Origin: a virus
Length of the DNA stretch: 64,000 nucleotides
Strand: one strand, 5' to 3'
IMG/VR virus record: IMGVR_UViG_3300049847_000416
Coordinates: 1 to 64,000 of that record
In this document: piece by piece, positions 33,181 to 63,236 of the stretch
Numbering within the stretch: position 1 is the stretch's first letter
How the letters are laid out: every line of letters starts with the position of its first letter
The notes under the pieces: generated by a model
The model's database searches: none
What the model saw: the letters and a program-made list of their open reading frames with translations, nothing else
Told to the model about the DNA's origin: nothing
Made by a program: the position numbers and the translations under genes

Positions 33181-33290
33181 GATTACTCCTTGAAAATTTT
33201 CGTGAGCACTTGATCTCTCTGTGGAAGTGGAGTAACCCGGCTTCGACAAGCGGCTTCAGCCCGGCTGAAGTGCGATCTGGCTCTACCAAA

Positions 33291-35142: not shown

Positions 35143-35799
35143 TCACCCGCACAGCCAATCTTGGTCTACGAGAACACCAGTGTCCCACTTCCAAGACACA
35201 AAATTGTGGTGCGCCACAATTCCTTTGTGGCTGCACGCCAGGGCGGGACACACGTCTAATCGCTGAGCTTTGGGAAGCGGGACGAGCGGGATATTCCAGC
35301 GCTTCGCGAGCATCTGCACCAACTCTTTGAGGGCTTGTTGCTGCGGTGGGGTGATTGCAGCCCAGAAGTCAAATCCCCGCCATGCCTTCGCCACATACTT
35401 CGTGGGTTCGTCCAGCGAACAATAGACTTTCCCGTACGTGTCCAGGAGTTGCTTGCCCTTCAGCTTCAGCGGTCCTTCACACACGACTTCAATTCCTATG
35501 GACCGTGTGTTAACGGATGTGGGACATACGTCCGTTCCGCCAATGTGCCAAGCCCACCCCTTGGCTGGATCAAAACATTGGTAGACCACGGACACACCTT
35601 TGACAGGTTTGTCTACCAAATAGGGGGTGGCGACTCTCACTTCGTGCCCGTCTTGCTTGTCTGCGACCCAGCCAGCGTATGCGCCGGCTGCTGTGTACCC
35701 AGCGGTGTAGTGCAACAAGATACGGTCATAGGTGGGAGTCCCTACGTGCGCCACCCATTGATTGGGTGCCAGAGAAAATTTCTGAGTGTCCAAAATCAC
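35143..35799 (-). CDS. N-acetylmuramoyl-L-alanine amidase (Amidase_2), probable endolysin
   Basis: ILLHYTAG, AWHIG, NTRSIGIE and IVAH......KWD motifs. Confidence 0.88.
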   Translation of the reverse strand: MILDTQKFSLAPNQWVAHVGTPTYDRILLHYTAGYTAAGAYAGWVADKQDGHEVRVATPYLVDKPVKGVSVVYQCFDPAKGWAWHIGGTDVCPTSVNTRSIGIEVVCEGPLKLKGKQLLDTYGKVYCSLDEPTKYVAKAWRGFDFWAAITPPQQQALKELVQMLAKRWNIPLVPLPKAQRLDVCPALACSHKGIVAHHNFVSWKWDTGVLVDQDWLCG

Positions 35800-37163
35800 G
35801 TTTTCGAGCCCTCTACCAGGTCTTCAGCTTGGGGGTTGTCCCGGCTGTCTGCGGTGCTGTCGGGCTGATTGTTCGGATCCTCGCCACCCAGCACATCCAG
35901 TTCAGGTCCATCAATCGGCTGGACATTACCCATCCACGCCACGTCTCCCCAGGGAACGGGGTCGAAGCCCAGACCAAGCCGCTCATTCACGGCATTGATT
36001 GGCCAACCAGTGCTCACCAAGACCTTGGCCGTGTTGGCTTTGTCCATGAGCGCTTTGCGCATGGCCGTGTTCTTGGTGAGATCATACCGAATCTCGATGT
36101 CGTCACCCCAGTGTGGGGTGAGTGAGTTATTGAAACTCGCCGCGATCCAGTCCAGCATCGGCACCAGCCGGTCTTCCAGGAAGCTCAAACGCGCGGTCTG
36201 GGCATTGGAATAGTTGGGATCAGGAGTTGCGCCGACCAAGATGGCAGGCACTTGACAGATGGCGCAAAGTTCGTGCTTGGCGATCTCTCGGCCCTGCGTG
36301 AATTGCAGATCCGTGTGAGTCATCATCGTCTGCTGCCACTTCAGACCGCCCGTCAAGAGCATGGGGCTGTACAGATTCGCACCCGAGTACTGCTCTCGGA
36401 CCGATTCTTTCAGGTCCTCTCGCTGTTCGGGGGTGACAAACGAATCGGTGTAGAGCACACCGCTAGGCTGGGCGAAATTTTCCAGGAGGGCGGTATTCCA
36501 GGTGTGGGCGGCGTCTTCGTTCTGGATAGCTCGCACTGCCGCCGAGATGGGAGACAGGGACGTATATGGATTCAGGGGATCAGCATACCGCATGTACGAG
36601 ACTTCCTGCGGCGGGAAAGTGACATCAGGAGCCGAGCTAGACTCCATCCCCGATACCAACCGAAATCCCTTGATGAATTGGAGGGGATCGGTCACGACCT
36701 CCACCCAGTCAGGCCGCATGGGCCACAATTCTTTGACTTTGGTCCCACTGCGGGTGGTCTTTTTCTGGTCAGTAACCAGCACCTTCTGTGTGTACGACGC
36801 ACCAGCCAAAAATAACGAATACAACATCACAGAGAACAGGTCCCGCTTAGTCATGTGCGGGTTCGGTTTCTGGATCAAGAGTTCCAGTTCGTGATCTCGG
36901 ATAACCGTGTTCGTGCCCTTGTGGTGCACTTTCCAGTCAGGAGACACTAGCGACGTAGCCCAGTACTCCAGGCACGCACGAATCCACACAATCTGCTTCA
37001 CGCCGTGCTGGATGCTCTGTTGAAACGACAGAGGCGCACCCTGATTGGTGCGGATGCCAAATCCGCTACCAAACCCAGATGTACTACCGTACAACTGGTT
37101 CAGGCTGGCGAGCCACAGGTTCGCCTTACTCCGTCTGGGTTTCAGAAGACTGGTGAGATTCAT
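35796..37163 (-). CDS. HK97-family portal protein
   Basis: L...PNPHMT; LWPMRPD.V; N.AQPSGVL; GGLKWQ; IC.VP..LVG; YSN. Confidence 0.93.
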   Translation of the reverse strand: MNLTSLLKPRRSKANLWLASLNQLYGSTSGFGSGFGIRTNQGAPLSFQQSIQHGVKQIVWIRACLEYWATSLVSPDWKVHHKGTNTVIRDHELELLIQKPNPHMTKRDLFSVMLYSLFLAGASYTQKVLVTDQKKTTRSGTKVKELWPMRPDWVEVVTDPLQFIKGFRLVSGMESSSAPDVTFPPQEVSYMRYADPLNPYTSLSPISAAVRAIQNEDAAHTWNTALLENFAQPSGVLYTDSFVTPEQREDLKESVREQYSGANLYSPMLLTGGLKWQQTMMTHTDLQFTQGREIAKHELCAICQVPAILVGATPDPNYSNAQTARLSFLEDRLVPMLDWIAASFNNSLTPHWGDDIEIRYDLTKNTAMRKALMDKANTAKVLVSTGWPINAVNERLGLGFDPVPWGDVAWMGNVQPIDGPELDVLGGEDPNNQPDSTADSRDNPQAEDLVEGSKT

Positions 37164-37183: not shown

Positions 37184-37753
37184 CTACTTTTTCATCCGGC
37201 TGCGTAGGATCATAAGCGCACGGGTATGGGCTTCAGCCGCTTCCGCTTTCGTGATCCCCAATTTTTGGGCGATCTGGCCCATGGGACTATCCTGGAAGTA
37301 CTTGTGATAGATGACCGCGCGTTGAAGGGCAGTCAAGTGGGGCAGGGCATCCCGCAGTTGCTTCTTCAGGACCTGCATGTCGTGTGCTTCTTCCACAGCC
37401 GGGATACCGCCAAGCGTGGGGTCTGCCCGCTGCTGGTGAGGCGCGCCCCAGGGTTCGGTCCGCTTCATGTAGTTCATCTCAACGCGCATCAAGTCGAGAT
37501 ACGCCCCTTTGATGTGGGGGATCAGGAAAGAGGATAACGCGGAAGACTGGTCGTACCGATTGTGCGCTCGCATCACGCGAACTACCGCCGCACTCAGAAA
37601 GTCTTCGAATGTTGACGTGCCCGGATCCGCCGCCTTGAAGCTCTTGCAAGATCGCATGACGTACTGAACGATCATGGGGTAGACCTCGCGGGGCTGGCCG
37701 TCTTTGCCTTTAAGTTCGAGACTGAGGCGTGGGAACTGTTTGTGAGTTCTCAT
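37184..37753 (-). CDS. phage RNA polymerase sigma factor (FliA/WhiG-like, regions 2 and 4)
   Basis: EDFLSAA......A..RYD....SSF....IKGA.LD.MR; LT..QRAVI...YF......IAQKLGIT......HTRAL..LR; AAGGA RBS before ATG 37753. Confidence 0.85.
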   Translation of the reverse strand: MRTHKQFPRLSLELKGKDGQPREVYPMIVQYVMRSCKSFKAADPGTSTFEDFLSAAVVRVMRAHNRYDQSSALSSFLIPHIKGAYLDLMRVEMNYMKRTEPWGAPHQQRADPTLGGIPAVEEAHDMQVLKKQLRDALPHLTALQRAVIYHKYFQDSPMGQIAQKLGITKAEAAEAHTRALMILRSRMKK

Positions 37754-37764
37754 GTATTCCTTTG

Positions 37765-40209
37765 TTACGGATTCACACGGGAAATTCCCGGTGTGGACAT
37801 CAAAAATTCGGTGCACATGGTGTTGAACGCGCCAGCGGTAGCGTCCCCGATATCATCGTGCAGATCGTTGTCGCCGGTCAGCCCGCAGATTTCCTGGAGC
37901 CAGTCTGTGGCCCAGACGCTATTGACCAACCAAACGTTTTGGTTCTGGGCTTGAGCCGCGAAGGGACTCCACCGGGCGCGTTTCGGTCCGCCTGGTGCTA
38001 CGCCCATGATGTTATATCCCGGCAAGGACCGGACGAAGTGGGACACCAAAGACTTACCGGACGCGCCAGGTTCCCGCTCAATGCGCTGAAACACGTTAAC
38101 ACCATCGGACTTCATCGTGCCAATCACCCGCTGTTCAACAATGGCGGGGTTCGACCGGAACCGCTGCATGTCTTCCACGACGATCCTGCCGATGGAATCA
38201 CGCGCCATGAGAATGCCCACGGTGTAATCAGGATCCGTGTTGGGCTTGGGATCGGTCGCCGCCAAATCCCAAAACCGCAAGCGCAGGCACTTTCCGGCAA
38301 CGGGCACCGGCTGCATCAGGAACCACTCGCGCTGGAACACCGCATCAGTACGGGTGGCCATCCAATCGCCATACCGGCGTTGCCGGTAAGTGAGAGGATC
38401 CAGGTTCTTCAGCGACTTCTCATATTGCACTAAGTCAATTGCGGGGTTGTCCTCGATATAGAACGGAATGTACGCAATGTCAGGGTCTTTTCCCTGGTTC
38501 AAAACGTATTTGTCCCGCAGGAAGATGTGCGAGATGCCACCCGGATTACTGACGAGTCTATAGCGCAACGGGATCGGATCCGTGATGACTTTGCGCAATC
38601 GCAGGAAGATGAACTCTAGCTGAGTCTGAGAAAACTGCCCGGCTTCGTCAATGCCGATGAAGTGGAATTCGGGACCGTCGTACTGGAACTTGTCTTGTTC
38701 CGTATTCATGTGACCGAACTTTAACACGGCCCCAGCCGGAAAGCGCACCTCATGGGTATCGCTGTTGAAGTGGAATGGGACGCCTGCCGCCTGCATCCTC
38801 CGCAAGGTGCGGTCCATAATCGAATTGGGAGACGCCAACTGACCAAGAGTTCGGCGCAGGATGAGCGCCCGGTAATTGGGCCGCGTCACATACTGCAACG
38901 CCGCCCGGATCAGGACTTCTGAATTGTGAGTCAGGATGTAGTGCTTCGTGCAGAACAAGTGGTCTTCGGCTTCCACCGCAATGCACGTACACTCTTCGGG
39001 CGCAACTGGCTCCACCGTGCGCACACTGCGCTTGGGCGCTACCATGCCCTTCTTTTTGGTGTAGTCAGGTTGATATAGTGCAACCTTGCGCGGAAGCCGG
39101 AACGGCTGGACCCACGATGGGAGCCTCAAGCTGATCGGGTACTCTATGCCCTTACCCGCCGCTGTGCGGTCGGCTGTGCTGATGACGGCTCTACCGCCCA
39201 GTCCTTCCACAAGCTCCCGGAAATTTTCTGCCAACTTATGGGAGGTAGTGTCAAACCGGATTTGGTGCGTGTTCTTCTTTCGGAACGCCATCCCGTCCGA
39301 GTCCATTAACCCCTGGAGAACGGCGATTCGGTAGGCGGGGGACGCACGGAGTGCGACTTCTGGGATAAACCGCTCGCCGGAGTATAGGCCGAGCAGACCG
39401 AGCTTATCCAGCGCATCGCGCTTACTGGCTCCGTAAGTTACGTGGAAAGAGTGCGTCCCTTGAGCCAAATACGTGCGGTCAGGAGATCCCAAGTGCACAA
39501 GGATGTCAGGTGCGTCCCGGTCGTCCATCGCGATGCTAACTTGCCGCCCAGCTAAAGAAGTAAGCTCACCATTACCGATGGCGTATCCTAGGAAGTACCC
39601 GTCTAGCTCAGGATCTGGTCCACAATCAAACTCCACTGGACCGCTTAGCATCGGGATCGTGTCAGCCTTGCGGGCGCTGAGGCCCCGCAGTTCATCCGTG
39701 CGTACCACTCGTGTCTGAAGAGGCTTCCGCCCCGTTACTTCCCGAGACACCGTCCACAAATGATCGTCGGCGGCAGTCACCGAACTGCCGTCAGAGAATG
39801 TAACACGGCTGCAAGGCCGAATACCCTGCGGATACACTCCGATGACCTTGGTGGGTTTGCCGTTGGAGCCGATGACGTAGTCACCTTCCCGGATGTTTCC
39901 GAAGCGTCGGTAACCCTGTGGAGTCGGTATAAGTTGTTGATTACAAAGGGCTTTGCCGTTACCACTTGCACCTCCGGCCATTGCTTGGTAGTGTGGCAAC
40001 ATGCAGAATGCCTTCTGCTTCGGGAACATAGGAAACACTTTCGTGTAGATGTTCTCCGTCTGCAAGTACTCTGCTTGGAACTTGCGCACGTCCACCATCC
40101 CCGCTCTCACTTTTTCCAGATTGGCTTGAAAAACAGAGAGGGGGAGCCCAGCCTTCCGGGCCATGTCTGCGTAGTCTATCGTGGGCAACTTAGTACTATC
40201 GTACCACAC
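37765..40209 (-). CDS. terL: terminase large subunit containing an intein (true start may be TTG 40188 or ATG 40163)
   Basis: GGASGNGK[intein]S, IGIDEA, SNPGG, RFWDLA, HDDIGDA. Confidence 0.93.
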   Translation of the reverse strand: MWYDSTKLPTIDYADMARKAGLPLSVFQANLEKVRAGMVDVRKFQAEYLQTENIYTKVFPMFPKQKAFCMLPHYQAMAGGASGNGKALCNQQLIPTPQGYRRFGNIREGDYVIGSNGKPTKVIGVYPQGIRPCSRVTFSDGSSVTAADDHLWTVSREVTGRKPLQTRVVRTDELRGLSARKADTIPMLSGPVEFDCGPDPELDGYFLGYAIGNGELTSLAGRQVSIAMDDRDAPDILVHLGSPDRTYLAQGTHSFHVTYGASKRDALDKLGLLGLYSGERFIPEVALRASPAYRIAVLQGLMDSDGMAFRKKNTHQIRFDTTSHKLAENFRELVEGLGGRAVISTADRTAAGKGIEYPISLRLPSWVQPFRLPRKVALYQPDYTKKKGMVAPKRSVRTVEPVAPEECTCIAVEAEDHLFCTKHYILTHNSEVLIRAALQYVTRPNYRALILRRTLGQLASPNSIMDRTLRRMQAAGVPFHFNSDTHEVRFPAGAVLKFGHMNTEQDKFQYDGPEFHFIGIDEAGQFSQTQLEFIFLRLRKVITDPIPLRYRLVSNPGGISHIFLRDKYVLNQGKDPDIAYIPFYIEDNPAIDLVQYEKSLKNLDPLTYRQRRYGDWMATRTDAVFQREWFLMQPVPVAGKCLRLRFWDLAATDPKPNTDPDYTVGILMARDSIGRIVVEDMQRFRSNPAIVEQRVIGTMKSDGVNVFQRIEREPGASGKSLVSHFVRSLPGYNIMGVAPGGPKRARWSPFAAQAQNQNVWLVNSVWATDWLQEICGLTGDNDLHDDIGDATAGAFNTMCTEFLMSTPGISRVNP
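38923..39951 (-). mobile_element. class 3 intein with LAGLIDADG endonuclease (343 aa) in the terminase P-loop
   Basis: Starts with Ala (ALCNQQLIPTP); DHLW; CTCIAV; ILTHN/S; LGYAIGNG and LQGLMDSDG. Confidence 0.92.
40194..40201 (-). promoter_or_regulatory. putative late promoter CGATAGTA
   Basis: 5 nt before the in-frame TTG 40188 of the terminase gene. Confidence 0.5.
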
Positions 40210-52322: not shown

Positions 52323-52781
52323 CTAGAGCTTGTTCACAATGAAACGAATGTTGTAGCTTGCCGTGCCAGTGGTGCAAGTATTCCCAACCGTAGTTTCGTA
52401 GGAGATATCTTGGCCTGAGGCCAAATGAACGAGGATGCTACCAGACACATACCTCCGAGTAATACCAACTACTCCGCTACTCGCCTGCACAGAGGGACTA
52501 CTGAAGATTCTGGCACCACCATCATTCCAGCGCAAGCGAATAAAGTTGGTGGTGAATCCAGTTGTGCAAGCCGCATTCATCCACATGTGGTAGTCAATTC
52601 TACGCAAACCAACCGCGCCGCTCGTGACGAGATTGGTCTGTGCAACAGACGCTGAAGACGCACTAATTGTAATGTCTGCCTCAGGAGGAGCGGCTGCCCC
52701 ACCTCCACCGCCACCCGTGCTGCCCGTCGATTGTGCGAGGAGTGCTGTTGCCAGCACTCCAATCATGAAAAGGTATCGCAT
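52323..52781 (-). CDS. exported beta-sandwich protein with Sec signal peptide
   Basis: TAATG-coupled start at 52781; MRYLFMIGVLATALLA/Q; two Cys. Confidence 0.75.
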   Translation of the reverse strand: MRYLFMIGVLATALLAQSTGSTGGGGGGAAAPPEADITISASSASVAQTNLVTSGAVGLRRIDYHMWMNAACTTGFTTNFIRLRWNDGGARIFSSPSVQASSGVVGITRRYVSGSILVHLASGQDISYETTVGNTCTTGTASYNIRFIVNKL

Positions 52782-55700
52782 TACTTTACCTGACCTCCGA
52801 AGAACACGGACGCGGACGCTGTCTGAGTGAAACACCCGGTCGTCGAGAACACGGCCACAATTCCTGTGGAGAAGTGGGCTGGGTACGTTTGATGGCTGAG
52901 ACTCGTGGTCTGGTTGGCTGGAGCCACCACGCAGTGCACCGGAGTAACCGGCCCATCGGCGGGTGCTGTAGTTGAGTTGAACAGCATCAGATACCCGGCT
53001 GTGGCTCCCACCGTCACGTGCAGGCTGTACAGATTACCTGCACTCGTCTTCAGTGCGATGCTGGACGTAATCGCAGGCGAGGCCACCGGCAACAGAGCGT
53101 TTGCAGCCAACGAAGTTGGTGCGTTGATAATCTCCGTGCGTCCGCTGGCGTCACGAACTTCGGGGTTCGCCACTGCGATGGGGCCTTGCCCCTGGGAGGG
53201 ACTCGTGAACCATGACAAATTCACAGAACCCGACGTATAAGAAGTGGCTCTCAAACGCACGTCCACCAAACCCACGGTGTTGATCGTGCCAATAACCGGC
53301 CCAGTAAAAGGCCCGTATGTGAGAACTTCGCCACCCGTGGCCCCACTGACTTGCACCGGAATGCGAATCCATGCAGTGCCACCCTGTCTACCCTCAACTA
53401 CCAGCGAGGCCACAAATGGACCCGCGTTGGACAATCTAAAGGACATGCTGGGAGACCCTGGGGGCACAATCAAAGACGCTGACGAATTGGCTGTTGGTGT
53501 ACCTGTGATGAGCGTTTGACCAAACCCGGTTGACGTGGTCACTGACGCCACGTCAGCAGCAGATATCACGGCACCCGCCGATCCGTTGGCGTAGCTACCC
53601 TGCACTGCAAACAGCGGTTGACTAGCCGTACCACCCTGCCCATTCGGAGACAGGCTAACAGGTACTGAGGTTTCTGTGCCATCCGTGGAAGTGGATGGGG
53701 GCACAAGCGTCAGGCTATTGATCCCGTCTGACTGCTGCACAGTGAAAGGTGTTGCGGCATCGTTTTGATCGACCTTCAAACCATCCTGAACCTTTACAGC
53801 GTTCAAGACAGCTTTCAACACGCCATCGGGCATCGTTGCGAACTGAACATCCGCTTGACCAGTCATCGGTGCAATCGAACGAACGCGGATACGAATCATA
53901 CCCGAAGTGCTAACCAATCCAGAGAAAGGGCTTGTGAAAGTTGAAGCAGCAGTCGTTACTCCCATCTGGTGTAGAGGCAACCGGGTCCAGTAGGCATTGT
54001 CAAACGTACCTTCGACTGCTAGAGTGCCCGTGAACGTATTTGTCACCTGAATGTAAGCCGCGTTCACCTGAGACAGTCCGCCAAGATCATGGAAAGACAG
54101 GGCCGTCGGTGTTCCAGTGACGACGATCTGCCCATTTGCAACCGCCACAGCGGTTGACCCTGCGTCTTGAGTGGTGATGGCCGTGATGCTGGTAAGAGCC
54201 TGTCCACGGTTAGCGAGAACTGTACGCAGCGTACCGGCGTCAGAAACTCCGTAGTTGACGGAAGGCGCGATGTTGTTGATCCCCAGCAAATTCGTAGAAG
54301 ATACCAGAGCGTCAGGAATGTGGTCCCCGGAGTACAGCGTAGTAACCGTAAGCAGACCTCCGGTAATCGCACTGTTTACCCGCATTTTCACAAAGCGATA
54401 TGGCGTGTTAACAACGAAGAACTTAGCTGTGTTATTTGCCACAACCGGCTGGAGCGCGACAAAACCAAACTCCTCATCTCTCACAGAAAGAGTATAGTAG
54501 TCCGTCCCGTTGTTGGACCCTTGGAAGACGTAGGAGCCGCCAGTGACACCAGAGCCGGTAACGCCAATGCGCAAAGAGCGCACCGCATAACCCACGCCGG
54601 TCTGCTGAAGGTCCACAGCATCAGCCGATCCATCCTTAGCCAGGAGATTACCACCCACTACGGTTACGCCCGTGGTGGTCACGGTAATTTCCTTGGATGG
54701 CGGAACGTTGCGATACCCGCCGATTTCGATGTACCCGGTCCAGGTTGCCAAAGACGGATCCGCTGCTACGCTCGCACGCAAATAAGGTGCGTCGGTCACG
54801 AAGCTGAAAAATCGATTCCACGCATTAAACTTGTATGTGGTAGTTGGACGCCACGTAACTGCGTCGTTGCTTTCTTCCACTGTGATCGTCGATGTCAGCG
54901 CATCCGATGTTGCGGAAGCTTGAGCCGGAATAGACACCTGCCAATAACGGCAACCCCGCATTGAAGCAGGCTGCCCACTCGGGGTAGCAATACCCGTGTT
55001 CTTGTCAATCGTCTGATCGTAGCTCCACGGTGTACCTCCGCCCACGCCGGGATTCCAGGTATCCCGGCAAAGTGCTTCATTGGCGGTATACAGCGTGTTC
55101 TGCTGATTGCTAATCGGACGGGTGCCAGACCCATCTGCTTTGGAGCTTGCGTACTGATCATGGGCAGCATACTTGAACTGTCCGCTTGCTAGATTCCACT
55201 CAACAGGAACATGCGCCTGTCGCCAACCATCCAAACGGACGGTGTAAACCGCACCAATCGGACCAGTGCTGTTAACACGAAGTTGGTTTGCACCAAAGCC
55301 GAGGACAGACGGCTGAATAGCGAAGTCTCTGTAGCCCGGTGAAACGAGAGTTCCGCTCAGGTTGACTCCCCCAAATCCGGCGGCGGTGTGCAATTCGTAC
55401 ACCCCAGAGGAGCTAACCGTACCAGCCGCGTTCGCAGCTTCAATAAATGTGGCATGTGAACCCGCCGTGTTCACACCAGGTAGAATCATTCTCCAGAACA
55501 TGCACCCGCGAACATCGGAGACAGACTGGCTCTTGTTGTCGTAGAAGGCTGACGCAACCGGCGCGCCGGTACCTGTGAAGGTGTACGTGATGGAGCAATC
55601 TGGCACCGGCTGAGAAGAAGAGCTACTCACTTGAACCAGACCGCCCAGGATCGGCAGCTTTTCAGATACCGTAACGTAGGATTTCGTGATCACAACATTC

Positions 55701-58700
55701 GCAGTTCCAGTCATAACAGCGGTTGACCGAACGCGGACGTTCGTCATGCCCACCGTGCTCACGGTTCCTTGGAAATTCTGAGTGAACGACGTACCAGGGG
55801 CAACCATCTCCGTTTGAGAAACAACCGCAGGCGTCCAGGTAGTTCCATTGTCCGCTGAGACTTCCAGACGAACCGTACCCGTCCAGGTTCCTTTGACCAG
55901 GACATGCACGGATGGGACGCTCACGAGGCTGATTGCCGCAGCAGAGAGCGCTGTAGGCGCTCCCGTGATGAACAACTGACCGTTGGCACCAACAGACTGC
56001 ACAGAAACGATGTCCTGTGTGCTGATCGAGATGCTATTCACCTGATCCTGTGGGCCGACAGTGTCCACCAACAGGCGATTGGTGAGAGGGGACTTCGGGA
56101 GATTGTTCACCGACACATCATTGACGCCGACTGTCTTGATGATGGAAACGCCCACCGTACCTGAAGTCCAACTCAACAGGCGAATGCGGTAGTGGGTCGC
56201 ACCCAAGGTGGATACCACGCCCACGAACGAATTTTCGTTGGCAACAGGGGACACAAAAGACGTAGCATTGTAAGCCACTCCATTCTGCTGAACAGAGGCG
56301 GGTGTGTAGGTCAAGCCACCGTCGAAGCTGATCTCTGAACTGATAGCCGACACACCAACCTGAACCGCAGTCACCCGGATAGCGGAAACAGACGACAGAG
56401 GGAACACCGCTGCGGAACCGGCGTCAGGGACACCAGCAAACGTCTGTTGACCATTCGCCAGAGTGGTGGTAACCACTGTAGCGTCATTCACCGTCAAGGT
56501 GATCGGACCAGCCGTTGTGTCAGCAGCAGCCGCTGTATTGACCTGGAGCACACCTCCCGAAATGGGGAGCTTTTCCTGCAAAGGGCTGTAGGTCGCCAGG
56601 AGTACAACGTTAGCCGTACCAGTCATGACAGCGGTGGAGCGCACGCGAATGTGTGTAGCACCATTCACAGAGACAGCGCCCACGAAGTTGGCAATAAAGG
56701 AAGTCGCCGGAGCCGTAGTATTGGTTTGGGAAACGGCTGTAGGCACCCACGTGGTTCCACCATCAATGGAGGTTTCCACCTGCAAAGTACCGGTCCAGAT
56801 TCCGGTCACTTGGATACGCGCCGTCTGGTTGCTGGTAAGCGTGGCCTGCACGAAGGACGCAACGGTAGGAACACCCGTAATCAAAGACTGCCCGTTCGCT
56901 CCAGCAGTTGATACAGACACAATGTCCTGGGCTGTGATCGCCGCAGAAGTGGAGGTGTCGGGCGGGTTCTGAGCATCCACTTGAACGCGGCTGGTGACCG
57001 TGTTCTGGGGCAGATTCGAGATAGACACAGAGGACGGCCCTGCCGTCTTGACCACGGTAACACTGAGTGTACCAGAGGTGAACGTGGTGACACGAACTCG
57101 CAGATGAGTTGCACCCTGCGTGTTGACCGTACCCACCAAGTTCATCTGGGTGCCGACTGCACCGGTCCAGGCCGAGAAAGGCTTGACAACCTCAGGCTGC
57201 AATATGTCTGCCCGGTAGAATCTAACACCACCGTCGAAGCTGACTTCAGCCACCGCAGTACCGATCATGTTTCCAGTCGTTTGCAACTTCACAAGGGGAA
57301 CGGACGCCAGAGTGAACAAAGCTTCAGAGCCGGCAGTAGCCAAGCTTCCGTTGGTGAAAGTTTTTCCGTTGGCGAGAGTGCCTGAGGTGGTTCCGCTGTC
57401 ATCGACGGTAAGAACAACCGGACCTGCGGTGGTGTCCGCAGCCGATGCCGTGTTCACCTGAACCTTGCCGCCCACGATGGGCATTTTGTCTTTGGCTGTG
57501 GTATAGCGGGCGTACAGCGCAACCTGCGCAGTTCCGGTATGAACAGCCGTCTCGCGGATTCGGACGCCCACGGCACCCTGGGTGTCCACGGTTCCAGCAA
57601 AATTCTGCGTAAACAGTGTGGAAGGCGCAACGGTGTCAGTCTGAGACACGGCTACAGGGATCCAGATGGTTCCGTCATAGGTGATTTCCGCTTGCAGGCT
57701 GCCCGTCCAGGCGTTTGATGCCTGAACCACCACTGAAGGAATGTTGTTCAGTGTGGCGGTTGCGAAAGATGCAGCGGTAGGAACACCAGTCACAAAAGAC
57801 TGGCCGTTCGCCCCGGCTGCGGTAACCGAAACAACGTCCCGTGCGGTGATGTTGCTGGTGCTGAGCAGCGCATCGGGAACAGGAGCCGTCTCCACCTGAA
57901 CGCGGTTGAGAGCGCTCTTGGGTAAGTTGTTGATGGAAACGACGCCGGCAGTCGGGCTCTCCACAATGGAGACAGCCGCATTTGCGGCGGTGAACGAGGT
58001 GCAACGAATCCGGTAGTGAGTGGCTCCCGCCGTGTTCACCTTACCCGTGATCTGGTCTTCAGTACCTGTGGTGGTAAAAGCCGAGCTACCGATGGAGGTG
58101 CCTTCTTGGAGCACGGGGGCCGGGAACCAAGTCCCGCCTCCGTCAAAGCTGATTTCAGACAGCAACGTACCAGCGAAACCACCGGTGACCATGTTCACCT
58201 GTACAGAGGCGGCAGACGCCAGTACGAAGGCCGCAGCGGATCCCGCTGTGGGAACACCAATCGTGTAAGTCTGGCCATTCACGCCGGTGGTAGTAACCGC
58301 CACGGCGTCTTGCGCACTGATGTTGATCGTGGCAGACGGGATGTTTGCGGGAGCGCTGGCCCCGCTCACCTGGAGCTTGCCGCCCAAGATGGGCAACACC
58401 TGTGGTCCCGGCTGGTAAGACGGGACGAGGGACACAATCGCTGTGCCAGTCATAGCGGCGACCGCACGGATACGCAGGTTCGTCGCACCAACCGTATTCA
58501 CTTGGCCGATGAAGTTCTGGGTGAAGGAAGAGGACGTGGCCGTAGAATCGGCCTGCACAACGACTGCCCGCGTCCAGGTGACGCCGCTGTCAATCGAAGT
58601 TTCTACCTGGAGGGTACCGCTCCACGTACCCTTCGCCTGAACCATGGTCGTTTGGTTGCCGATCAAGGCAACCTGTGCAAAAGAGTTCACGGTCGGCGGT

Positions 58701-60295
58701 CCATTGGTGAAGAACGGTTGCCCATTGGCTCCCGCTGAAGTGACAACCACGGCGTCTTGAGTCGTGATGTTGATGGCGCTCGCAACACCGTCAACCGGAA
58801 CGCTCACCTGAACTTTATTGTTCGAGATGGGCAGCTTGTCGGGGACCGCACCTGAGGACTTCACGAACGCCACTGACGCGGAACCCGTCATGACAGCAGT
58901 CGAGCGCACGCGCACGTCGGTTGCGCCAATAGTCGTCAAGGAAGCGATGAAATTCTGGGTGAAAGAACTGGCTGGAGCAGTGGTGCCAGTCTGTGAGACA
59001 ACAGTCGGGGTCCAATTCGCCCCGTTGTCCATCGAAGTTTCGACCTGGAGGTTTCCCGTCCAGGTTCCGGTGACTTGGATCCGTGTGGTTTGGGTACCAC
59101 TGAGGGTAGTCGCCGCGAAGGATGCGGCAGTCGGAACACCAGTCACCAAGCTTTGGCCATTGGCAGCGGCAGCAGTAGCGGACACGATGTCCTGCGTAGT
59201 AACCGCAACGGCGGCAACTGCTGTGTCTGCTGTACTGGTGGCAGCGGCGTAGCGCCACTCGTTAGCGGTTGAGTTGTAAGTTACCGGAACCGGAGCCGTG
59301 CGCCAGCCATCGACCCTAATTTGATACACGATACCCGTGCCGCCACGAGTGCGGACGCGCAACATACCTACACCATTGGAGGTAGCAGTGACGTTCGGAA
59401 CAACCGCAACGTCTTGGTACCGGCTGGTGGCGTGGGTACCAATCAAAGACGGCACACCTCCGCCGTCCAGGCGATAGAACCCGTTGACGCTGGTCGTACC
59501 AGCCAATGTTCGCCCCTCAAGCGTTAAAGCAGCCATCAAAGCCGCAGAGGTATTCGGCAGCATGACGATACGCCAGAAAGTGCAACCCCGTCGATCCGCA
59601 GCCGACTGCGGAGCATTCGAGTAATCAGCGCTAAACAAATCCGTTGCCGCACCGGCTCCCGTGAATGTGGTGGTAAAAGAACAGTCGGGCGTGCTCAAAC
59701 TCGCTTGTGGAACGGTGGAGAGCAGTTCGGCGGGGGGTGTTCTGAAACCAAACAACTTGGCTTCGAGTGTCGTAGCTCCCGCAGCCGTATACGTCAGGCG
59801 CAGCCAGGGCGTGTAGCCAGACAGTACGGCTGCGCCGTAGCCAACGGCTTCAGTGGAAGTCTGAGACCCGTTGACGGGGGTGAGACCAGACGTGGCGTAC
59901 ACACCAGGAGTACCGCCCACATCCGCCGCCGTTTGGAGGTTGACGGTAGTGGACGTGGTGTTAGGGTGGTTCCACACCAGCACCCAATACCGGCAGGACG
60001 TAGTCGCGGCGCTGTTCGTGCGATTGTCCAAATCGGTGGACGTACCGCTGGTGGCGGCGGCTGTGACAGAGTAGGTCAGAGCGCAGTCGGCAGAAGCGGT
60101 GGACCCAGCCACCAGCAAATTTCCAGACGCGTCCACCTTGAGCGTTTGTAGGACTAGGCCGGGGTCAATGCCCTGGACCGCGACGGGATTCGTCACCGTA
60201 ACCGCACCCGAAGCACCCGAACCACCCCCGGACGGGGGAAACTGAGCGAACGCCGAAGCGGTCAATAGCGAAACAGCAATCCAAATCTTGCGCAT
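52781..60295 (-). CDS. giant (2504 aa) multi-repeat beta-sandwich protein with Sec signal peptide
   Basis: MRKIWIAVSLLTASAFA/QFPP; 10 repeats of about 150 aa (QD...ANGQ...TGVPT...GTW.G.L.VE.S.DGG..W...GAT..RVR); 4 Cys-pair domains (C...[RS]GC.[FY]W-like); distinct C-terminal domain. Confidence 0.85.
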   Translation of the reverse strand: MRKIWIAVSLLTASAFAQFPPSGGGSGASGAVTVTNPVAVQGIDPGLVLQTLKVDASGNLLVAGSTASADCALTYSVTAAATSGTSTDLDNRTNSAATTSCRYWVLVWNHPNTTSTTVNLQTAADVGGTPGVYATSGLTPVNGSQTSTEAVGYGAAVLSGYTPWLRLTYTAAGATTLEAKLFGFRTPPAELLSTVPQASLSTPDCSFTTTFTGAGAATDLFSADYSNAPQSAADRRGCTFWRIVMLPNTSAALMAALTLEGRTLAGTTSVNGFYRLDGGGVPSLIGTHATSRYQDVAVVPNVTATSNGVGMLRVRTRGGTGIVYQIRVDGWRTAPVPVTYNSTANEWRYAAATSTADTAVAAVAVTTQDIVSATAAAANGQSLVTGVPTAASFAATTLSGTQTTRIQVTGTWTGNLQVETSMDNGANWTPTVVSQTGTTAPASSFTQNFIASLTTIGATDVRVRSTAVMTGSASVAFVKSSGAVPDKLPISNNKVQVSVPVDGVASAINITTQDAVVVTSAGANGQPFFTNGPPTVNSFAQVALIGNQTTMVQAKGTWSGTLQVETSIDSGVTWTRAVVVQADSTATSSSFTQNFIGQVNTVGATNLRIRAVAAMTGTAIVSLVPSYQPGPQVLPILGGKLQVSGASAPANIPSATINISAQDAVAVTTTGVNGQTYTIGVPTAGSAAAFVLASAASVQVNMVTGGFAGTLLSEISFDGGGTWFPAPVLQEGTSIGSSAFTTTGTEDQITGKVNTAGATHYRIRCTSFTAANAAVSIVESPTAGVVSINNLPKSALNRVQVETAPVPDALLSTSNITARDVVSVTAAGANGQSFVTGVPTAASFATATLNNIPSVVVQASNAWTGSLQAEITYDGTIWIPVAVSQTDTVAPSTLFTQNFAGTVDTQGAVGVRIRETAVHTGTAQVALYARYTTAKDKMPIVGGKVQVNTASAADTTAGPVVLTVDDSGTTSGTLANGKTFTNGSLATAGSEALFTLASVPLVKLQTTGNMIGTAVAEVSFDGGVRFYRADILQPEVVKPFSAWTGAVGTQMNLVGTVNTQGATHLRVRVTTFTSGTLSVTVVKTAGPSSVSISNLPQNTVTSRVQVDAQNPPDTSTSAAITAQDIVSVSTAGANGQSLITGVPTVASFVQATLTSNQTARIQVTGIWTGTLQVETSIDGGTTWVPTAVSQTNTTAPATSFIANFVGAVSVNGATHIRVRSTAVMTGTANVVLLATYSPLQEKLPISGGVLQVNTAAAADTTAGPITLTVNDATVVTTTLANGQQTFAGVPDAGSAAVFPLSSVSAIRVTAVQVGVSAISSEISFDGGLTYTPASVQQNGVAYNATSFVSPVANENSFVGVVSTLGATHYRIRLLSWTSGTVGVSIIKTVGVNDVSVNNLPKSPLTNRLLVDTVGPQDQVNSISISTQDIVSVQSVGANGQLFITGAPTALSAAAISLVSVPSVHVLVKGTWTGTVRLEVSADNGTTWTPAVVSQTEMVAPGTSFTQNFQGTVSTVGMTNVRVRSTAVMTGTANVVITKSYVTVSEKLPILGGLVQVSSSSSQPVPDCSITYTFTGTGAPVASAFYDNKSQSVSDVRGCMFWRMILPGVNTAGSHATFIEAANAAGTVSSSGVYELHTAAGFGGVNLSGTLVSPGYRDFAIQPSVLGFGANQLRVNSTGPIGAVYTVRLDGWRQAHVPVEWNLASGQFKYAAHDQYASSKADGSGTRPISNQQNTLYTANEALCRDTWNPGVGGGTPWSYDQTIDKNTGIATPSGQPASMRGCRYWQVSIPAQASATSDALTSTITVEESNDAVTWRPTTTYKFNAWNRFFSFVTDAPYLRASVAADPSLATWTGYIEIGGYRNVPPSKEITVTTTGVTVVGGNLLAKDGSADAVDLQQTGVGYAVRSLRIGVTGSGVTGGSYVFQGSNNGTDYYTLSVRDEEFGFVALQPVVANNTAKFFVVNTPYRFVKMRVNSAITGGLLTVTTLYSGDHIPDALVSSTNLLGINNIAPSVNYGVSDAGTLRTVLANRGQALTSITAITTQDAGSTAVAVANGQIVVTGTPTALSFHDLGGLSQVNAAYIQVTNTFTGTLAVEGTFDNAYWTRLPLHQMGVTTAASTFTSPFSGLVSTSGMIRIRVRSIAPMTGQADVQFATMPDGVLKAVLNAVKVQDGLKVDQNDAATPFTVQQSDGINSLTLVPPSTSTDGTETSVPVSLSPNGQGGTASQPLFAVQGSYANGSAGAVISAADVASVTTSTGFGQTLITGTPTANSSASLIVPPGSPSMSFRLSNAGPFVASLVVEGRQGGTAWIRIPVQVSGATGGEVLTYGPFTGPVIGTINTVGLVDVRLRATSYTSGSVNLSWFTSPSQGQGPIAVANPEVRDASGRTEIINAPTSLAANALLPVASPAITSSIALKTSAGNLYSLHVTVGATAGYLMLFNSTTAPADGPVTPVHCVVAPANQTTSLSHQTYPAHFSTGIVAVFSTTGCFTQTASASVFFGGQVK

Positions 60296-60310
60296 ATGAT
60301 GTCTACCTGA

Positions 60311-60318
60311 TAGTATCG
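60311..60318 (-). promoter_or_regulatory. putative late promoter (GC)CGATACTA
   Basis: 15 nt upstream of ATG 60295; GCCGATAC resembles the sigma28 -10 consensus GCCGATAA. Confidence 0.6.
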
Positions 60319-60374
60319 GCAGCCTCACATCTGTGTGGGCTGAACAAGCGGTTCAGAAATTTTCTGAGCCCACC

Positions 60375-61301: not shown

Positions 61302-62114
61302 CTACAGCGGAGAAATTTTCCGCAACTGTTCCAACACCGCCCACAGCCCGTGCCGCTCACGAAAGGCCACTGGCATTGGCACGCGGGATCCGAAAGCGGT
61401 AGTCCGCGCGTAAGTCAAGTACCGCATGCACCAGCTTCGCGTCCTTACAGGCATTGAAATTTTATGCTGGCTGATCAAGGAATCCAATTCCAGCCAGTCT
61501 AGCGGCATGTCGTTGTTCCATTTCTCCCGAGCTTCAGCGTACGCTTGATTGCGTTGTTTCCGGTGCAGCACCCGCATCTTCCGCTCAAACCCAATTGACT
61601 TCACCCGTTTATTGGTCGGGAGAGCAGCATTCCGGTCCCGGATCCATTCTTCCGGGTTCTCCCACAGATGCAGCAACCAGGTCTTGTAGAGAGTCAGTTC
61701 GTCCTTGGTGACTTTTTCCGGCATTGGAAACCAACCAATCACACCGTCGGCGATCTCGATGAACCGGCTGTCCTTGAGCATCTCCCCTGTTCTCCTGTGA
61801 TTTGGTGGCTTCCAGTAATCTGGCATAGGCCAGGAATCCGTGGTTTTCTCCAGCTTCCAGAGCTTCATCCCATGCAGCTTACTTCTGACCAATGAGAGAT
61901 CAGTCTTGCTGACTGTGCGAACATCCACGTACAGAGCTTCAGCCTGCTTCGATATAACTGGAAGAACGACTTTCAGAAGATCAGATTGCTTGATTTCCAG
62001 GAGTTTGTCAACGATCTGAGAAACCAGGCTTTCATCGAATGAAAGAACGGGTGAAATTTCAGATGGCTGTGACTTTGGTGTTTCATGATGAGTCTGACGA
62101 GTAGATGGTTTCAT
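61302..62114 (-). CDS. hypothetical basic protein
   Basis: 270-aa ORF downstream of the structured region; no family recognised. Confidence 0.65.
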   Translation of the reverse strand: MKPSTRQTHHETPKSQPSEISPVLSFDESLVSQIVDKLLEIKQSDLLKVVLPVISKQAEALYVDVRTVSKTDLSLVRSKLHGMKLWKLEKTTDSWPMPDYWKPPNHRRTGEMLKDSRFIEIADGVIGWFPMPEKVTKDELTLYKTWLLHLWENPEEWIRDRNAALPTNKRVKSIGFERKMRVLHRKQRNQAYAEAREKWNNDMPLDWLELDSLISQHKISMPVRTRSWCMRYLTYARTTAFGSRVPMPVAFRERHGLWAVLEQLRKISPL

Positions 62115-62247
62115 GGTTAGATCAATGAATGGGTGAAATTTCAGATGTCAGTGATAGCTGTGATTTAAGTTGGGACTGTGTCCTTTGATCATGGAATGCT
62201 GATCTCTTCGAGATCAGATTCTGCTGATCGGAGATCTCTTCGAGATC
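62049..62247. repeat. direct repeats and palindromes
   Basis: GGGTGAAATTTCAGATG at 62049 and 62131; palindromic GATCTCTTCGAGATC at 62201 and 62233. Confidence 0.75.
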
Positions 62248-62360
62248 TCTTTGAAGAGATGGAGCTATCCTTAAACCCATCTATCAGTCTCACGTCTAGC
62301 CATCCAGGTGTTCAGCCATCCAGCAGCCAGACGGGAAGGAGTTTGACCGCTCATGAACGG

Positions 62361-62831
62361 GAAAAGGGCATGGGAATAGCCTAGGAGTAGCATCAGAATG
62401 GTTAGATTCTTAACACTAAACCCAGACTATTCCCATGCCCCTCTCACTTCTACAAAGTACCTTGGACTTGACCAGCCCAAGTTACGATGAATGAGGGTGA
62501 AACGTTCTCGACCCGGCGTCACGTGGAGTCATTGGAAGAGCCGCTGAACACCATCGCTGGCCCAGGCTGGTTGGTCTCCTGCTTGCGCAAGAATCGAACC
62601 AGTTGGTCCTGTTTGAGTCTTTAGACCTATCACCCCCATCGGTTGCCCGAATCGTGTGTAGGAAGATGCCCCGTCGTTCCAATTATCTTGAGTGGGTGCT
62701 GCTCAGCATCATTGCCCATGGTATGGACCATCCCGTCTCCAGGACAACCCACCGGGGAATCTCACCCCGACAGCGCTTGCGTACATCTCAGCCCACCGCC
62801 ATCGTTTTATATGCCGACCCAGTGAACCTAC
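62361..62831 (-). ncRNA. candidate large structured ncRNA or leader (about 470 nt)
   Basis: Consensus-like promoter upstream; several G-U-rich stems with GNRA tetraloops; terminal long hairpin. Confidence 0.55.
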
Positions 62832-62837
62832 ATACAC

Positions 62838-62866
62838 AGTATCTCACATTTCAGGATTTCTGTCAA
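62838..62866 (-). promoter_or_regulatory. sigma70 promoter TTGACA-N17-GATACT
   Basis: Perfect -35, 17-bp spacer and near-consensus -10. Confidence 0.75.
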
Positions 62867-62904: not shown

Positions 62905-62933
62905 TTGCGTCTGTGGCCTACATCTGGCATGAT
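62905..62933 (+). promoter_or_regulatory. divergent sigma70-like promoter TTGCGT-N17-CATGAT, leaderless
   Basis: 6 nt upstream of ATG 62940. Confidence 0.5.
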
Positions 62934-62939
62934 TGACTT

Positions 62940-63236
62940 ATGAACTTGGACAACTTCCAGAAAGTGCTAGACCAGATCGAAGCACATCCTGAGACTTGGG
63001 AGCAAGCAGTTTGGCATACGTCCTGCGGGACGGCTCACTGTTTTGCCGGCTGGGCTCAGCTTCTCGCTGGGGACGAAATGTCAGAAGATGCCGTTGCAGA
63101 TGACGCGATCCGGTTTCTGGACTGCACCGAGGATGAAGCAGACTACCTGTTCGAGCCCGAGCGCACCCTGGCGGACTTCCGGCACGTTCTCCAAACGGGA
63201 ACGGTCCCAGGCTACGGATGGGGCGATGAGTCTTAA
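62940..63236 (+). CDS. hypothetical phage protein
   Basis: W.Q..W...CGTAHCFAGWA motif, recurrent in small phage proteins. Confidence 0.7.
   Translation: MNLDNFQKVLDQIEAHPETWEQAVWHTSCGTAHCFAGWAQLLAGDEMSEDAVADDAIRFLDCTEDEADYLFEPERTLADFRHVLQTGTVPGYGWGDES

What the first reader, a model, noticed from the sequence alone, without database searches (positions are those of the whole stretch)
62361..62866. Large, ornate structured RNA behind a consensus sigma70 promoter
Seen on the minus strand after TTGACA-17-GATACT, with no convincing ORF. Hairpins include UGGGUUGUCCUG-GAGA-CGGGAUGGUCCA (62724-62751), UCGG-GCAA-CCGA (62639-62650), UUCUUGC-GCAA-GCAGGAG nested in CUGGUU/AACCAG and CAGG/CCUG, and CGGGG-UGAGAUU-CCCCG. 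There is a long-range AUUGGAA/UUCCAAU pair, CUUGGGCU/AGUCCAAG, and a final ~85-nt hairpin with a perfect 14-bp core (62366-62379 with 62427-62440). GNRA loops and G-U pairs work on the minus strand, which points to selection at the RNA level. I do not recognise it as tmRNA, RNase P, SRP or an intron. Inference: a new phage ncRNA class, an RNA partner of the downstream 270-aa basic protein, or a replication primer RNA.
Basis: partly seen in the sequence, partly recalled or inferred. Interest (0 to 1): 0.8.

Follow-up and report, generated by a model that had tools for sequence, protein, structure and literature searches.

The report
Uncatalogued folded RNA in a phage
A gene-free stretch at the strand-switch point of an uncultured freshwater phage most likely encodes a folded non-coding RNA of about 380-480 bases that matches no catalogued RNA family, but no relatives could be fetched, so its fold is only partly proven and its function is unknown.

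Summary
The stretch (62355-62832, minus strand) folds far better than shuffles on the minus strand only (z -5.4 against -0.65). The two windows covering it are the best-folding of 620 windows scanned in the phage. Support is uneven. Domain II (62490-62640, z -3.5) and the 96-nt terminal hairpin (z -10.3) are strong. Domain I (62641-62828) is not more stable than chance, though its ensemble is unusually well defined. A near-identical strain in an independent freshwater metagenome carries five transitions within 26 nt. Four of them form two double-compensatory changes in one predicted Domain II hairpin, and the fifth lies in its loop (simulated chance 1e-4). No reading frame explains them. No Rfam family matches, even at E<=10, and the record holds no tRNA, tmRNA or reverse transcriptase. 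The promoter match is good (10/12, 17-nt spacer, TG), but such matches are no more frequent in this genome than chance predicts. The phage lineage is very sparsely sampled, so no homologues could be fetched and no family can be defined. My best reading is a discrete early non-coding RNA, placed like the Pleft RNAs of cluster A mycobacteriophages. A cis-acting leader or an origin-linked RNA remains possible. The scan has already noted similar uncatalogued RNAs in other phages.

The parts
62838..62866 (-). Sigma-70-type promoter-like site TTGACA (62866-62861), 17-nt spacer, TG (62846-62845), GATACT (62843-62838). Predicted start of transcription about 62833-62831.
   Evidence: 10 of 12 matches, TG present. 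Such matches are not enriched in the genome (8 found, 6.8 expected). Its activity is inferred, not shown.
62641..62828 (-). Domain I: a multi-branched 188-nt domain closed by GGUU/AACC and CUGGGUCG/CGAUUCGG. It contains the GAGA-looped hairpin GUCCUG/CGGGAU and a three-way junction. Weakly supported.
   Evidence: Fold. MFE z -0.92 and -1.2, not significant. The ensemble is unusually well defined on the minus strand only: diversity 0.088 per nt against 0.241 +/- 0.087 in shuffles; 2% of shuffles are as low, against 69% for the plus strand.
62490..62640 (-). Domain II: a 151-nt irregular rod closed by the 11-bp helix GAUGGGGGUGA/UCACCCUCAUU. It branches into the GCAA-capped hairpin (62563-62611) and the variable hairpin (62521-62557).
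   Evidence: MFE -59.1 kcal/mol, z -3.53, 0 of 200 shuffles as stable. The plus strand gives z -0.82. Mean pair probabilities are 0.96-0.99. No shuffle has an ensemble as well defined.
62521..62557 (-). Variable hairpin of Domain II, carrying two compensatory pair changes in a natural variant: G62551-C62526 becomes A-U and A62545-U62531 becomes G-C. A fifth change, U62537 to C, lies in the apical loop.
   Evidence: The variant is a 151-nt contig of run X3, from an independent freshwater metagenome study. It was mapped onto the MFE fold. Pair probabilities are 0.93-0.99. Simulated chance of two or more compensatory pairs from five random transitions is 1.4e-4. In every frame at least 3 of the 5 changes alter the amino acid.
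62457..62485 (-). Hairpin III: CUUGGGCU-GGUCA-AGUCCAAG flanked by GUA/UAC, followed by GUACUUUGUA. Terminator-like.
   Evidence: Pair probability 1.00. Listed as a terminator-like site, although such sites are at chance frequency in the region (4 found, 3.1 expected).
62355..62450 (-). Hairpin IV: a 96-nt hairpin with 25 contiguous pairs (4 G-U), a 2x2 internal loop and a 12-bp upper stem (3 G-U), followed by UUUUCCC. Candidate terminator, 3' protective stem or RNase III-type processing site.
   Evidence: Minus strand: -57.5 kcal/mol, z -10.3. Plus strand: -38.6, z -5.3. It is the largest inverted repeat in the 64-kb window. Only weak microRNA-precursor-like Rfam hits, far below gathering score.
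62115..62340 (.). Context: a repeat-rich spacer between the RNA and the next gene. It holds CTGGATGGCT twice, the palindrome GATCTCTTCGAGATC twice, 7 GATC in 200 bp, a 58-nt direct repeat with TGAAATTTCA, and a candidate promoter TGATCA-17-TTAAAT (62191-62163, minus strand).
   Evidence: The GATC density ties for highest in the genome. The promoter assignment was read by eye, with one regex match.
61302..62114 (-). Context: the 270-aa basic protein (pI 9.7) of unknown family, next gene downstream on the same strand.
   Evidence: One relative (P0122, 35% identity, E 2e-28) among 1.84 billion representatives. AlphaFold model pLDDT 44.

Best explanation
The stretch is a real structured RNA gene or element, read leftward on the minus strand by the host RNA polymerase.

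Transcription is inferred to start about 62832, just downstream of TTGACA-17-TGnGATACT. This point is the head of a short early leftward unit (RNA, 270-aa gene, ~213-aa coiled-coil gene). It lies upstream of the first late-type CGATnnTA motif at 60311.

The RNA folds into four parts:
- Domain I (62828-62641), a branched domain with weak support;
- Domain II (62640-62490), a well-supported rod-and-branch domain;
- hairpin III (62485-62457);
- hairpin IV (62450-62355), a very long, nearly perfect hairpin.

I commit to this reading: hairpins III and IV end and protect the transcript, so a discrete, stable non-coding RNA of about 380-480 nt accumulates early in infection and acts in trans, most likely by binding a protein of the host or the phage. 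The closest parallel is the abundant Pleft-derived non-coding RNAs of cluster A mycobacteriophages.

Shown: strand-specific excess folding, and selection for pairing in one Domain II hairpin.
Inferred: the promoter's activity, the 3' end, release as a separate RNA, and any function.
For: (1) The minus strand folds far better than dinucleotide shuffles (z -5.38, 0 of 100). The plus strand does not (z -0.65).

(2) In a scan of 500-nt windows on both strands (1-77 kb), corrected for composition, the two windows covering the stretch on the minus strand are the two strongest of 620: -5.67 and -3.63 sd.

(3) Domain II has z -3.5 and hairpin IV z -10.3 on the minus strand, against -0.8 and -5.3 on the plus strand. 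Of 171 predicted pairs, 27 are G-U.

(4) A natural variant from an independent study carries five transitions in 26 nt. Four make two double-compensatory changes in one predicted hairpin and the fifth is in its loop. The energy of the fold goes from -203.8 to -203.3 kcal/mol. Simulated chance is 1.4e-4. No frame makes the changes synonymous.

(5) There is no long ORF.

(6) A 10/12 promoter with ideal spacing and an extended -10 sits exactly at the 5' edge.

(7) A repeat- and palindrome-rich spacer with its own promoter-like site separates the RNA from the next gene. This fits a separate transcript.

(8) Published precedent: the early promoter Pleft of L5, D29 and StarStuff drives a ~500-bp ORF-free region that yields the most abundant, stable RNA of infection (PMC5712189).
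Against: - No transcript data. No RNA run listed holds the stretch.
- Only one variant sequence is available, from a depth-2 contig, and it tests a single hairpin.
- Domain I is not more stable than shuffles.
- Promoter-like matches of this quality are at chance frequency in the genome.
- Hairpin IV has only four U after the stem, so termination is not assured.
- When the RNA is folded through to the ATG at 62114, part of Domain II re-pairs with downstream sequence, as a leader with alternative folds would.
- No homologue was found, so conservation beyond strain level is unknown.
Confidence: 0.45

Rival explanations
1. Cis-acting leader. The structured RNA is the 5' part of a ~720-nt leader of the 270-aa and ~213-aa early-left genes. 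Hairpins III and IV act as attenuators or terminators. Read-through into the genes (and perhaps onward into the 60-kb structural arm) would be set by the fold of Domains I and II or by a factor bound to them. Comparisons: riboswitch-type attenuation, the lambda PR' '6S' leader with Q, or the HK022 put RNAs.
For: - Same strand and same direction as every downstream gene to position 1.
- Two terminator-like hairpins lie in tandem.
- The segment just 3' of hairpin IV (62307-62339) is complementary to one arm of a Domain II hairpin (10 of 10) and to one arm of a Domain I hairpin (10 of 11). The 733-nt fold uses the first of these.
Against: - The variant strain keeps the local hairpin by compensation. 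It introduces an A-C mismatch into the alternative long-range pairing, and the covered partner segment shows no compensating change.
- 10-11-nt complementarities are near chance in 1.1 kb (my estimate: 0.6 to about 5 expected).
- A promoter-like site and operator-like palindromes lie between the RNA and the gene.
- The late genes appear to have their own motif (CGATnnTA) and a phage ECF-type sigma factor.
Confidence: 0.25
2. Origin-linked RNA. Transcription from the strong promoter through a structured RNA primes or activates replication at an origin in the repeat- and GATC-rich spacer 62115-62340. Comparisons: ColE1 RNA II, or transcriptional activation of phage origins.
For: - The stretch sits at the point where the two gene arms diverge.
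- The spacer just downstream holds iteron-like direct repeats, palindromes and 7 GATC in 200 bp, which ties for the densest GATC cluster in the genome.
- The RNA's length is close to the ~550 nt of RNA II (my own knowledge).
Against: - No replication initiator, primase or polymerase was recognised nearby. The neighbours are orphan genes.
- The repeats fit operators equally well.
- GC skew shows no clear switch beyond what gene orientation would give.
- Nothing ties the RNA's fold to hybrid formation.
Confidence: 0.1
3. No selected RNA. The region is regulatory or spacer DNA. The long inverted repeat would be a DNA-level protein-binding site, the rest would fold well by chance, and the variant's pattern would be coincidence or sequencing noise.
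For: - Domain I is at chance stability.
- Hairpin IV also folds significantly on the plus strand (z -5.3).
- The variant rests on a single depth-2 contig.
- No homologues, no expression data, and the promoter is not statistically distinctive.
Against: - Strand asymmetry in every well-supported part.
- Seven G-U pairs extend hairpin IV from 14 to 37 pairs on the minus strand only.
- The two compensatory pairs have a simulated chance of 1.4e-4.
- The stretch ranks first and second of 620 windows in the genome.
Confidence: 0.15

Closest known systems
Pleft-derived abundant stable non-coding RNAs of cluster A mycobacteriophages (L5, D29, StarStuff; PMC5712189)
   Same: Both have a strong early promoter followed at once by a ~500-nt stretch without a credible ORF, ahead of the first early genes on that arm. 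[quoted passage not shown]
   Different: No sequence similarity to any deposited phage (blastn). Different host phylum (probably Acidobacteriota, inferred from the 41-47% identical ATPase homologues). Abundance, stability and toxicity are untested here. The mycobacteriophage element sits at a genome end, not at an internal strand switch.
Large 'ornate' RNAs often carried by phages or prophages: GOLLD (RF01998) and ROOL (RF03087) (PMC5737381; bioRxiv 10.1101/2024.12.08.627333)
   Same: Several hundred nucleotides, multi-domain, GNRA-capped hairpins, phage-borne, no known function.
   Different: No covariance-model match, even at E<=10. No neighbouring tRNA genes. No family of homologues. Nothing is known about self-assembly. 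The long, near-perfect terminal hairpin is not a feature of those families (my own knowledge).
Lambda PR' '6S' leader transcript and HK022 put RNAs (my own knowledge)
   Same: A short RNA made from a strong promoter at the head of a long co-directional set of phage structural genes, ending at a terminator-like hairpin. The put RNAs are structured and act in cis on RNA polymerase.
   Different: Those RNAs are ~194 nt (largely unstructured) and ~70 nt. This one is 380-480 nt with selected internal structure. The late genes here seem to use a phage sigma factor and their own motif. No Q-like or Nun-like gene was recognised.
ColE1 RNA II replication primer (my own knowledge)
   Same: A structured RNA of about 500 nt from a sigma-70 promoter, upstream of a repeat-rich region that could be an origin.
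   Different: No evidence for an origin, for RNase H processing or for an antisense RNA I partner. This is a phage rather than a plasmid.

Membership tests
Any Rfam 15 family (including GOLLD, ROOL, OLE, raiA, HEARO, group I/II introns, RNase P, 6S, tmRNA, pRNA) | Covariance-model score at or above the family's gathering threshold | tested here: not met
   No hit in the whole window or in the rest of the genome at gathering score. For 62452-62835 there is no hit even at E<=10. Only hairpin IV gives weak microRNA-precursor-like hits of 18-28 bits against cut-offs of 62-95. ARAGORN finds no tRNA or tmRNA.
Retron msr-msd RNA | A reverse transcriptase gene next to the non-coding RNA with its long msd hairpin | tested here: not met
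   No RVT_1 (PF00078) match anywhere in the 95-kb record. The 270-aa neighbour has no Pfam, PHROG or PADLOC hit. The record is about 73% complete.
Sigma-70-type promoter | -35 and -10 hexamers close to consensus at 16-18 nt spacing | tested here: met
   TTGACA-17-GATACT with TG, 10 of 12. Matches of this quality are at chance frequency in the genome: 8 found against 6.8 expected.
Sigma-70-type promoter | Transcription actually starts there | not testable with these tools
   No RNA run holding the stretch was listed.
Intrinsic terminator (hairpins III and IV) | G+C-rich stem directly followed by a U-rich tract | tested here: inconclusive
   Hairpin III meets the scan's criteria. Hairpin IV has a very strong stem (-57.5 kcal/mol) but only UUUU then CCC, and the scan does not list it.
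Pleft-type early phage ncRNA (cluster A mycobacteriophages) | ORF-free ~500-nt region directly downstream of the early promoter | tested here: met
   The longest minus-strand frame is 66 codons from TTG, with no homologue.
Pleft-type early phage ncRNA (cluster A mycobacteriophages) | Sequence homology to the L5/D29 right-end region | tested here: not met
   blastn (word size 11) against 50,697 phage records gave no match.
Pleft-type early phage ncRNA (cluster A mycobacteriophages) | Very abundant, stable transcript during infection | not testable with these tools
   No host culture and no RNA data.
Conserved structured RNA (general criterion) | Statistically supported covariation across homologues | tested here: inconclusive
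   Only one variant is available. It gives two compensatory pairs in one hairpin. No further homologues were found.

The most novel reading that the evidence does not exclude
This is the founding member of a new family of large structured phage RNAs made at the very start of infection, with a host-takeover role: for example, sequestering a host protein or polymerase, or blocking a defence system. It would be one of several unrelated large RNAs that different phage lineages place at the same spot, beside the early promoters or strand switch, as earlier notes of this scan suggest for other phages.
Probability: 0.3. Interest if true: 0.7.

Novelty: new variant of a known kind. Interest (0 to 1): 0.5.

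Why it matters
Large structured non-coding RNAs are rare, and most of those known have surprising functions or none yet assigned. If this one is real, it adds an uncatalogued RNA from a barely sampled phage lineage, probably infecting Acidobacteriota of freshwater sediments. It would also strengthen an emerging pattern: unrelated phages place big folded RNAs directly behind their early promoters. That points to a general, still unexplained step of early infection. On its own, as a single sequence with one informative variant, it is a candidate worth a Northern blot and a homologue search. It is not a discovery yet.

Tried and rejected
Homologue hunt (all blank):
- blastn against deposited phages and plasmids.
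- The 270-aa neighbour has no word-sharing relative. It has one distant relative, P0122, on a 21-kb JGI contig.
- The capsid protein, the 98-aa protein and the 270-aa protein found no relatives in viral contigs.
- The ATPase found only unrelated jumbo phages. In genome contigs it found only Chloroflexota at 30-34% identity.
- The nearest portal relatives are 48-51% identical and sit on short Logan contigs that I could not fetch. Deposited phages reach 30% at best.
- Purine/pyrimidine-coded RNA patterns: 0 hits in viral contigs and 0 in metagenome contigs.
- A loops-fixed, stems-free descriptor gave 61 hits in viral contigs, about what chance predicts. None could form the helices (best 13 of 18 pairs).

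Expression: no RNA holder listed.

Protein neighbour:
- AlphaFold model of the 270-aa protein was too poor to search (pLDDT 44).
- ESM Atlas gave only unnamed viral clusters.
- PDB profile search was blank. PADLOC was blank.

Ideas rejected:
- Group I intron, RNase P, tmRNA, 6S and the known ornate RNAs (no Rfam signal).
- Retron (no reverse transcriptase).
- A hidden coding region (stops in all frames; the variants are non-synonymous).
- An antisense or trans-pairing regulator of another phage gene: no complementarity of 14 nt or more elsewhere in the genome.

No covariance model was built, because nothing worth searching with it was available.

Full report
WHERE IT IS

The window is the first 64 kb of a 95,140-bp linear IMG/VR virus record, estimated 73% complete. 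It is a tailed phage:
- large terminase at 37765-40209;
- portal at 35796-37163;
- major head protein at 31897-33249;
- head protease and tail genes.

Almost every gene from 1 to 62114 is on the minus strand. From 62940 onward the genes run on the plus strand. The flagged stretch fills most of the 826-bp gene-free gap at this divergence point.

The phage lineage is barely sampled. The best portal match in 50,697 deposited phages is 30% identical. In 5.8 billion proteins the best is 51%. The ClpA-like AAA ATPase just across the gap (63043-64257) has its closest relatives, at 41-47% identity, in Bryobacterales, Solibacter and Paludibaculum. So an acidobacterial host is a reasonable guess and no more.

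THE OBSERVATION

The promoter-like site TTGACA-17-GATACT, with TG one base before the -10, is at 62866-62838 on the minus strand.

Folded as RNA, 62350-62845 gives:
- minus strand: -203.8 kcal/mol, z -5.38 against dinucleotide shuffles, none of 100 as good;
- plus strand: z -0.65.

As a genome-wide control I folded 500-nt windows every 250 nt on both strands over 1-77 kb and regressed out composition. The windows 62001-62500 and 62251-62750 on the minus strand are the two strongest of 620, at -5.67 and -3.63 sd.

ANATOMY AND UNEVEN SUPPORT

With the predicted start near 62832, the MFE, centroid and MEA folds nearly coincide. They give four parts.

- Domain I (62828-62641). Its stability is at chance (z -0.8 to -1.2). 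Its ensemble, however, is unusually well defined on the minus strand only: 2% of shuffles are as good, against 69% for the plus strand.
- Domain II (62640-62490). Solid: z -3.5 with 0 of 200 shuffles, against -0.8 on the plus strand.
- Hairpin III (62485-62457). Pair probability 1.00.
- Hairpin IV (62450-62355). It has 25 contiguous pairs plus a 12-bp upper stem. The minus strand gives -57.5 kcal/mol (z -10.3) and the plus strand -38.6 (z -5.3), because seven pairs are G-U. It is the largest inverted repeat in the window.

Without hairpin IV, the rest has z -1.97 on the minus strand and +1.35 on the plus strand.

A NATURAL VARIANT TESTS ONE HAIRPIN

Three public runs hold near-identical DNA. 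One is probably the source sample. The other two are freshwater metagenomes from other studies.

In run X3, a 151-nt contig over 62463-62613 differs by five transitions, all within 62526-62551. I mapped them on the fold that had been predicted beforehand:
- G62551-C62526 becomes A-U;
- A62545-U62531 becomes G-C;
- U62537 to C falls in the apical loop.

The energy of the same structure is -203.8 before and -203.3 after. These pairs have probability 0.93-0.99 in every fold that ends before 62290. In a million draws of five random transitions in that contig, two or more compensatory pairs arise with frequency 1.4e-4. In all six frames the region holds stops, and at least three of the five changes alter the amino acid.

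This is direct evidence, though narrow and resting on a depth-2 contig, that pairing in this RNA is under selection.

WHAT IT IS NOT

- No Rfam 15 family reaches its threshold anywhere in the genome.
- Domains I-III give nothing even at E<=10. Hairpin IV alone draws weak microRNA-precursor look-alike hits.
- No tRNA or tmRNA.
- No reverse transcriptase in the record, so it is not a retron.
- No similarity to deposited phages or plasmids.
- No extended complementarity to any other part of the phage.

SURROUNDINGS

Downstream of hairpin IV lies a 240-bp spacer with:
- CTGGATGGCT twice;
- the palindrome GATCTCTTCGAGATC twice;
- seven GATC in 200 bp, tied for densest in the genome;
- a 58-nt direct repeat carrying the dispersed TGAAATTTCA palindrome;
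- a promoter-like TGATCA-17-TTAAAT.

Next come the 270-aa basic protein (pI 9.7) and a coiled-coil protein. The first CGATnnTA motif, at 60311, lies ahead of the giant fibre-like protein.

The phage encodes an ECF-type sigma factor at 37184-37816. Fifteen of 18 CGATnnTA copies are on the minus strand, many just before gene starts. This fits earlier first-reader notes that the late genes have their own promoters. The RNA therefore heads a short early leftward unit rather than being needed to drive the structural arm.

The 270-aa protein is a real family of at least two members (35% identity, E 2e-28). Nothing links it to RNA, and its relative's contig could not be fetched.

HOW IT MOST LIKELY WORKS

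I commit to the following, at 0.45. Host polymerase starts at the sigma-70-type promoter right after infection. The nascent RNA folds into Domains I and II. Hairpins III and IV stop or process the transcript and protect its 3' end. A discrete, stable RNA of about 380-480 nt accumulates and acts in trans on a protein.

The nearest documented parallel is the ~500-bp ORF-free region behind Pleft in mycobacteriophages L5, D29 and StarStuff. It yields the most abundant, stable RNA of infection and is toxic to the host when cloned (PMC5712189).

The promoter's activity, the RNA's ends, its release and its function are all inferred.

Rivals:
- A cis-acting leader or attenuator for the downstream genes (0.25). 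It is favoured by two complementarities between the RNA body and 62307-62339. It is disfavoured because the variant conserves the local hairpin while weakening the long-range alternative.
- An origin-linked RNA (0.10).
- No selected RNA at all (0.15).

HOMOLOGUES

I could not obtain any, despite protein-guided and pattern-guided scans of the viral, metagenome and genome collections. The claim of a 'class' is therefore untested.

Earlier notes of this scan describe other uncatalogued 370-535-nt RNAs beside early promoters or strand switches in unrelated phages. One is also '~370 nt plus a long terminal hairpin'. These are leads, not evidence, and no sequence likeness to them was found.

VERDICT

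This is probably a real, uncatalogued structured phage RNA. It has good support for its 3' two-thirds, weak support for its 5' third, no expression data, no family yet and no known function. It is moderately interesting and worth the homologue retrieval and a Northern blot.

Noticed in passing
window 62115-62340: Repeat- and palindrome-rich spacer: GATCTCTTCGAGATC twice, CTGGATGGCT twice, and 7 GATC in 200 bp, which ties for the densest cluster in the genome. The RNA itself has no GATC. It could be operators, an origin or a pac-like site.
   Followed up: partly
window 62039-62096 and 62121-62178: A 58-nt direct repeat (72% identity). Each copy carries the dispersed palindrome TGAAATTTCA. One copy lies just upstream of the ATG of the 270-aa ORF and the other inside its first 25 codons. 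That N-terminal part is absent from the only homologue (the alignment starts at residue 35), so the true start of the gene is uncertain.
   Followed up: partly
window 62163-62191 (minus strand): Promoter-like TGATCA-17-TTAAAT ahead of the 270-aa gene, resembling the TTGATC...TAAnCT promoters of the early-gene cassettes near 91-92 kb of the genome.
   Followed up: partly
window 62905-62942 (plus strand): TTGCGT-17-CATGAT ends 6 nt before the ATG at 62940 of the 98-aa gene (PHROG 889). The rightward early transcript may therefore be leaderless.
   Followed up: no
window 37184-37816 (minus strand) and the CGATNNTA sites: A 210-aa ECF-type sigma factor (Sigma70 r2 + r4) lies between the terminase and portal genes. 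Fifteen of 18 CGATNNTA copies are on the minus strand, many just upstream of structural gene starts, although the total count is not above chance (18 against 13.7 expected).
   Followed up: partly
window 62949-63053: The probable source sample holds a second, more abundant 14.9-kb contig that is 85% identical over the start of the 98-aa gene but unlike this phage just upstream. A related phage may have a different element at the same junction.
   Followed up: no
window 52781-60328 (minus strand): A 2515-aa repeat protein with a signal-peptide-like start, probably a fibre. It is preceded by CGATACTA at 60311.
   Followed up: no
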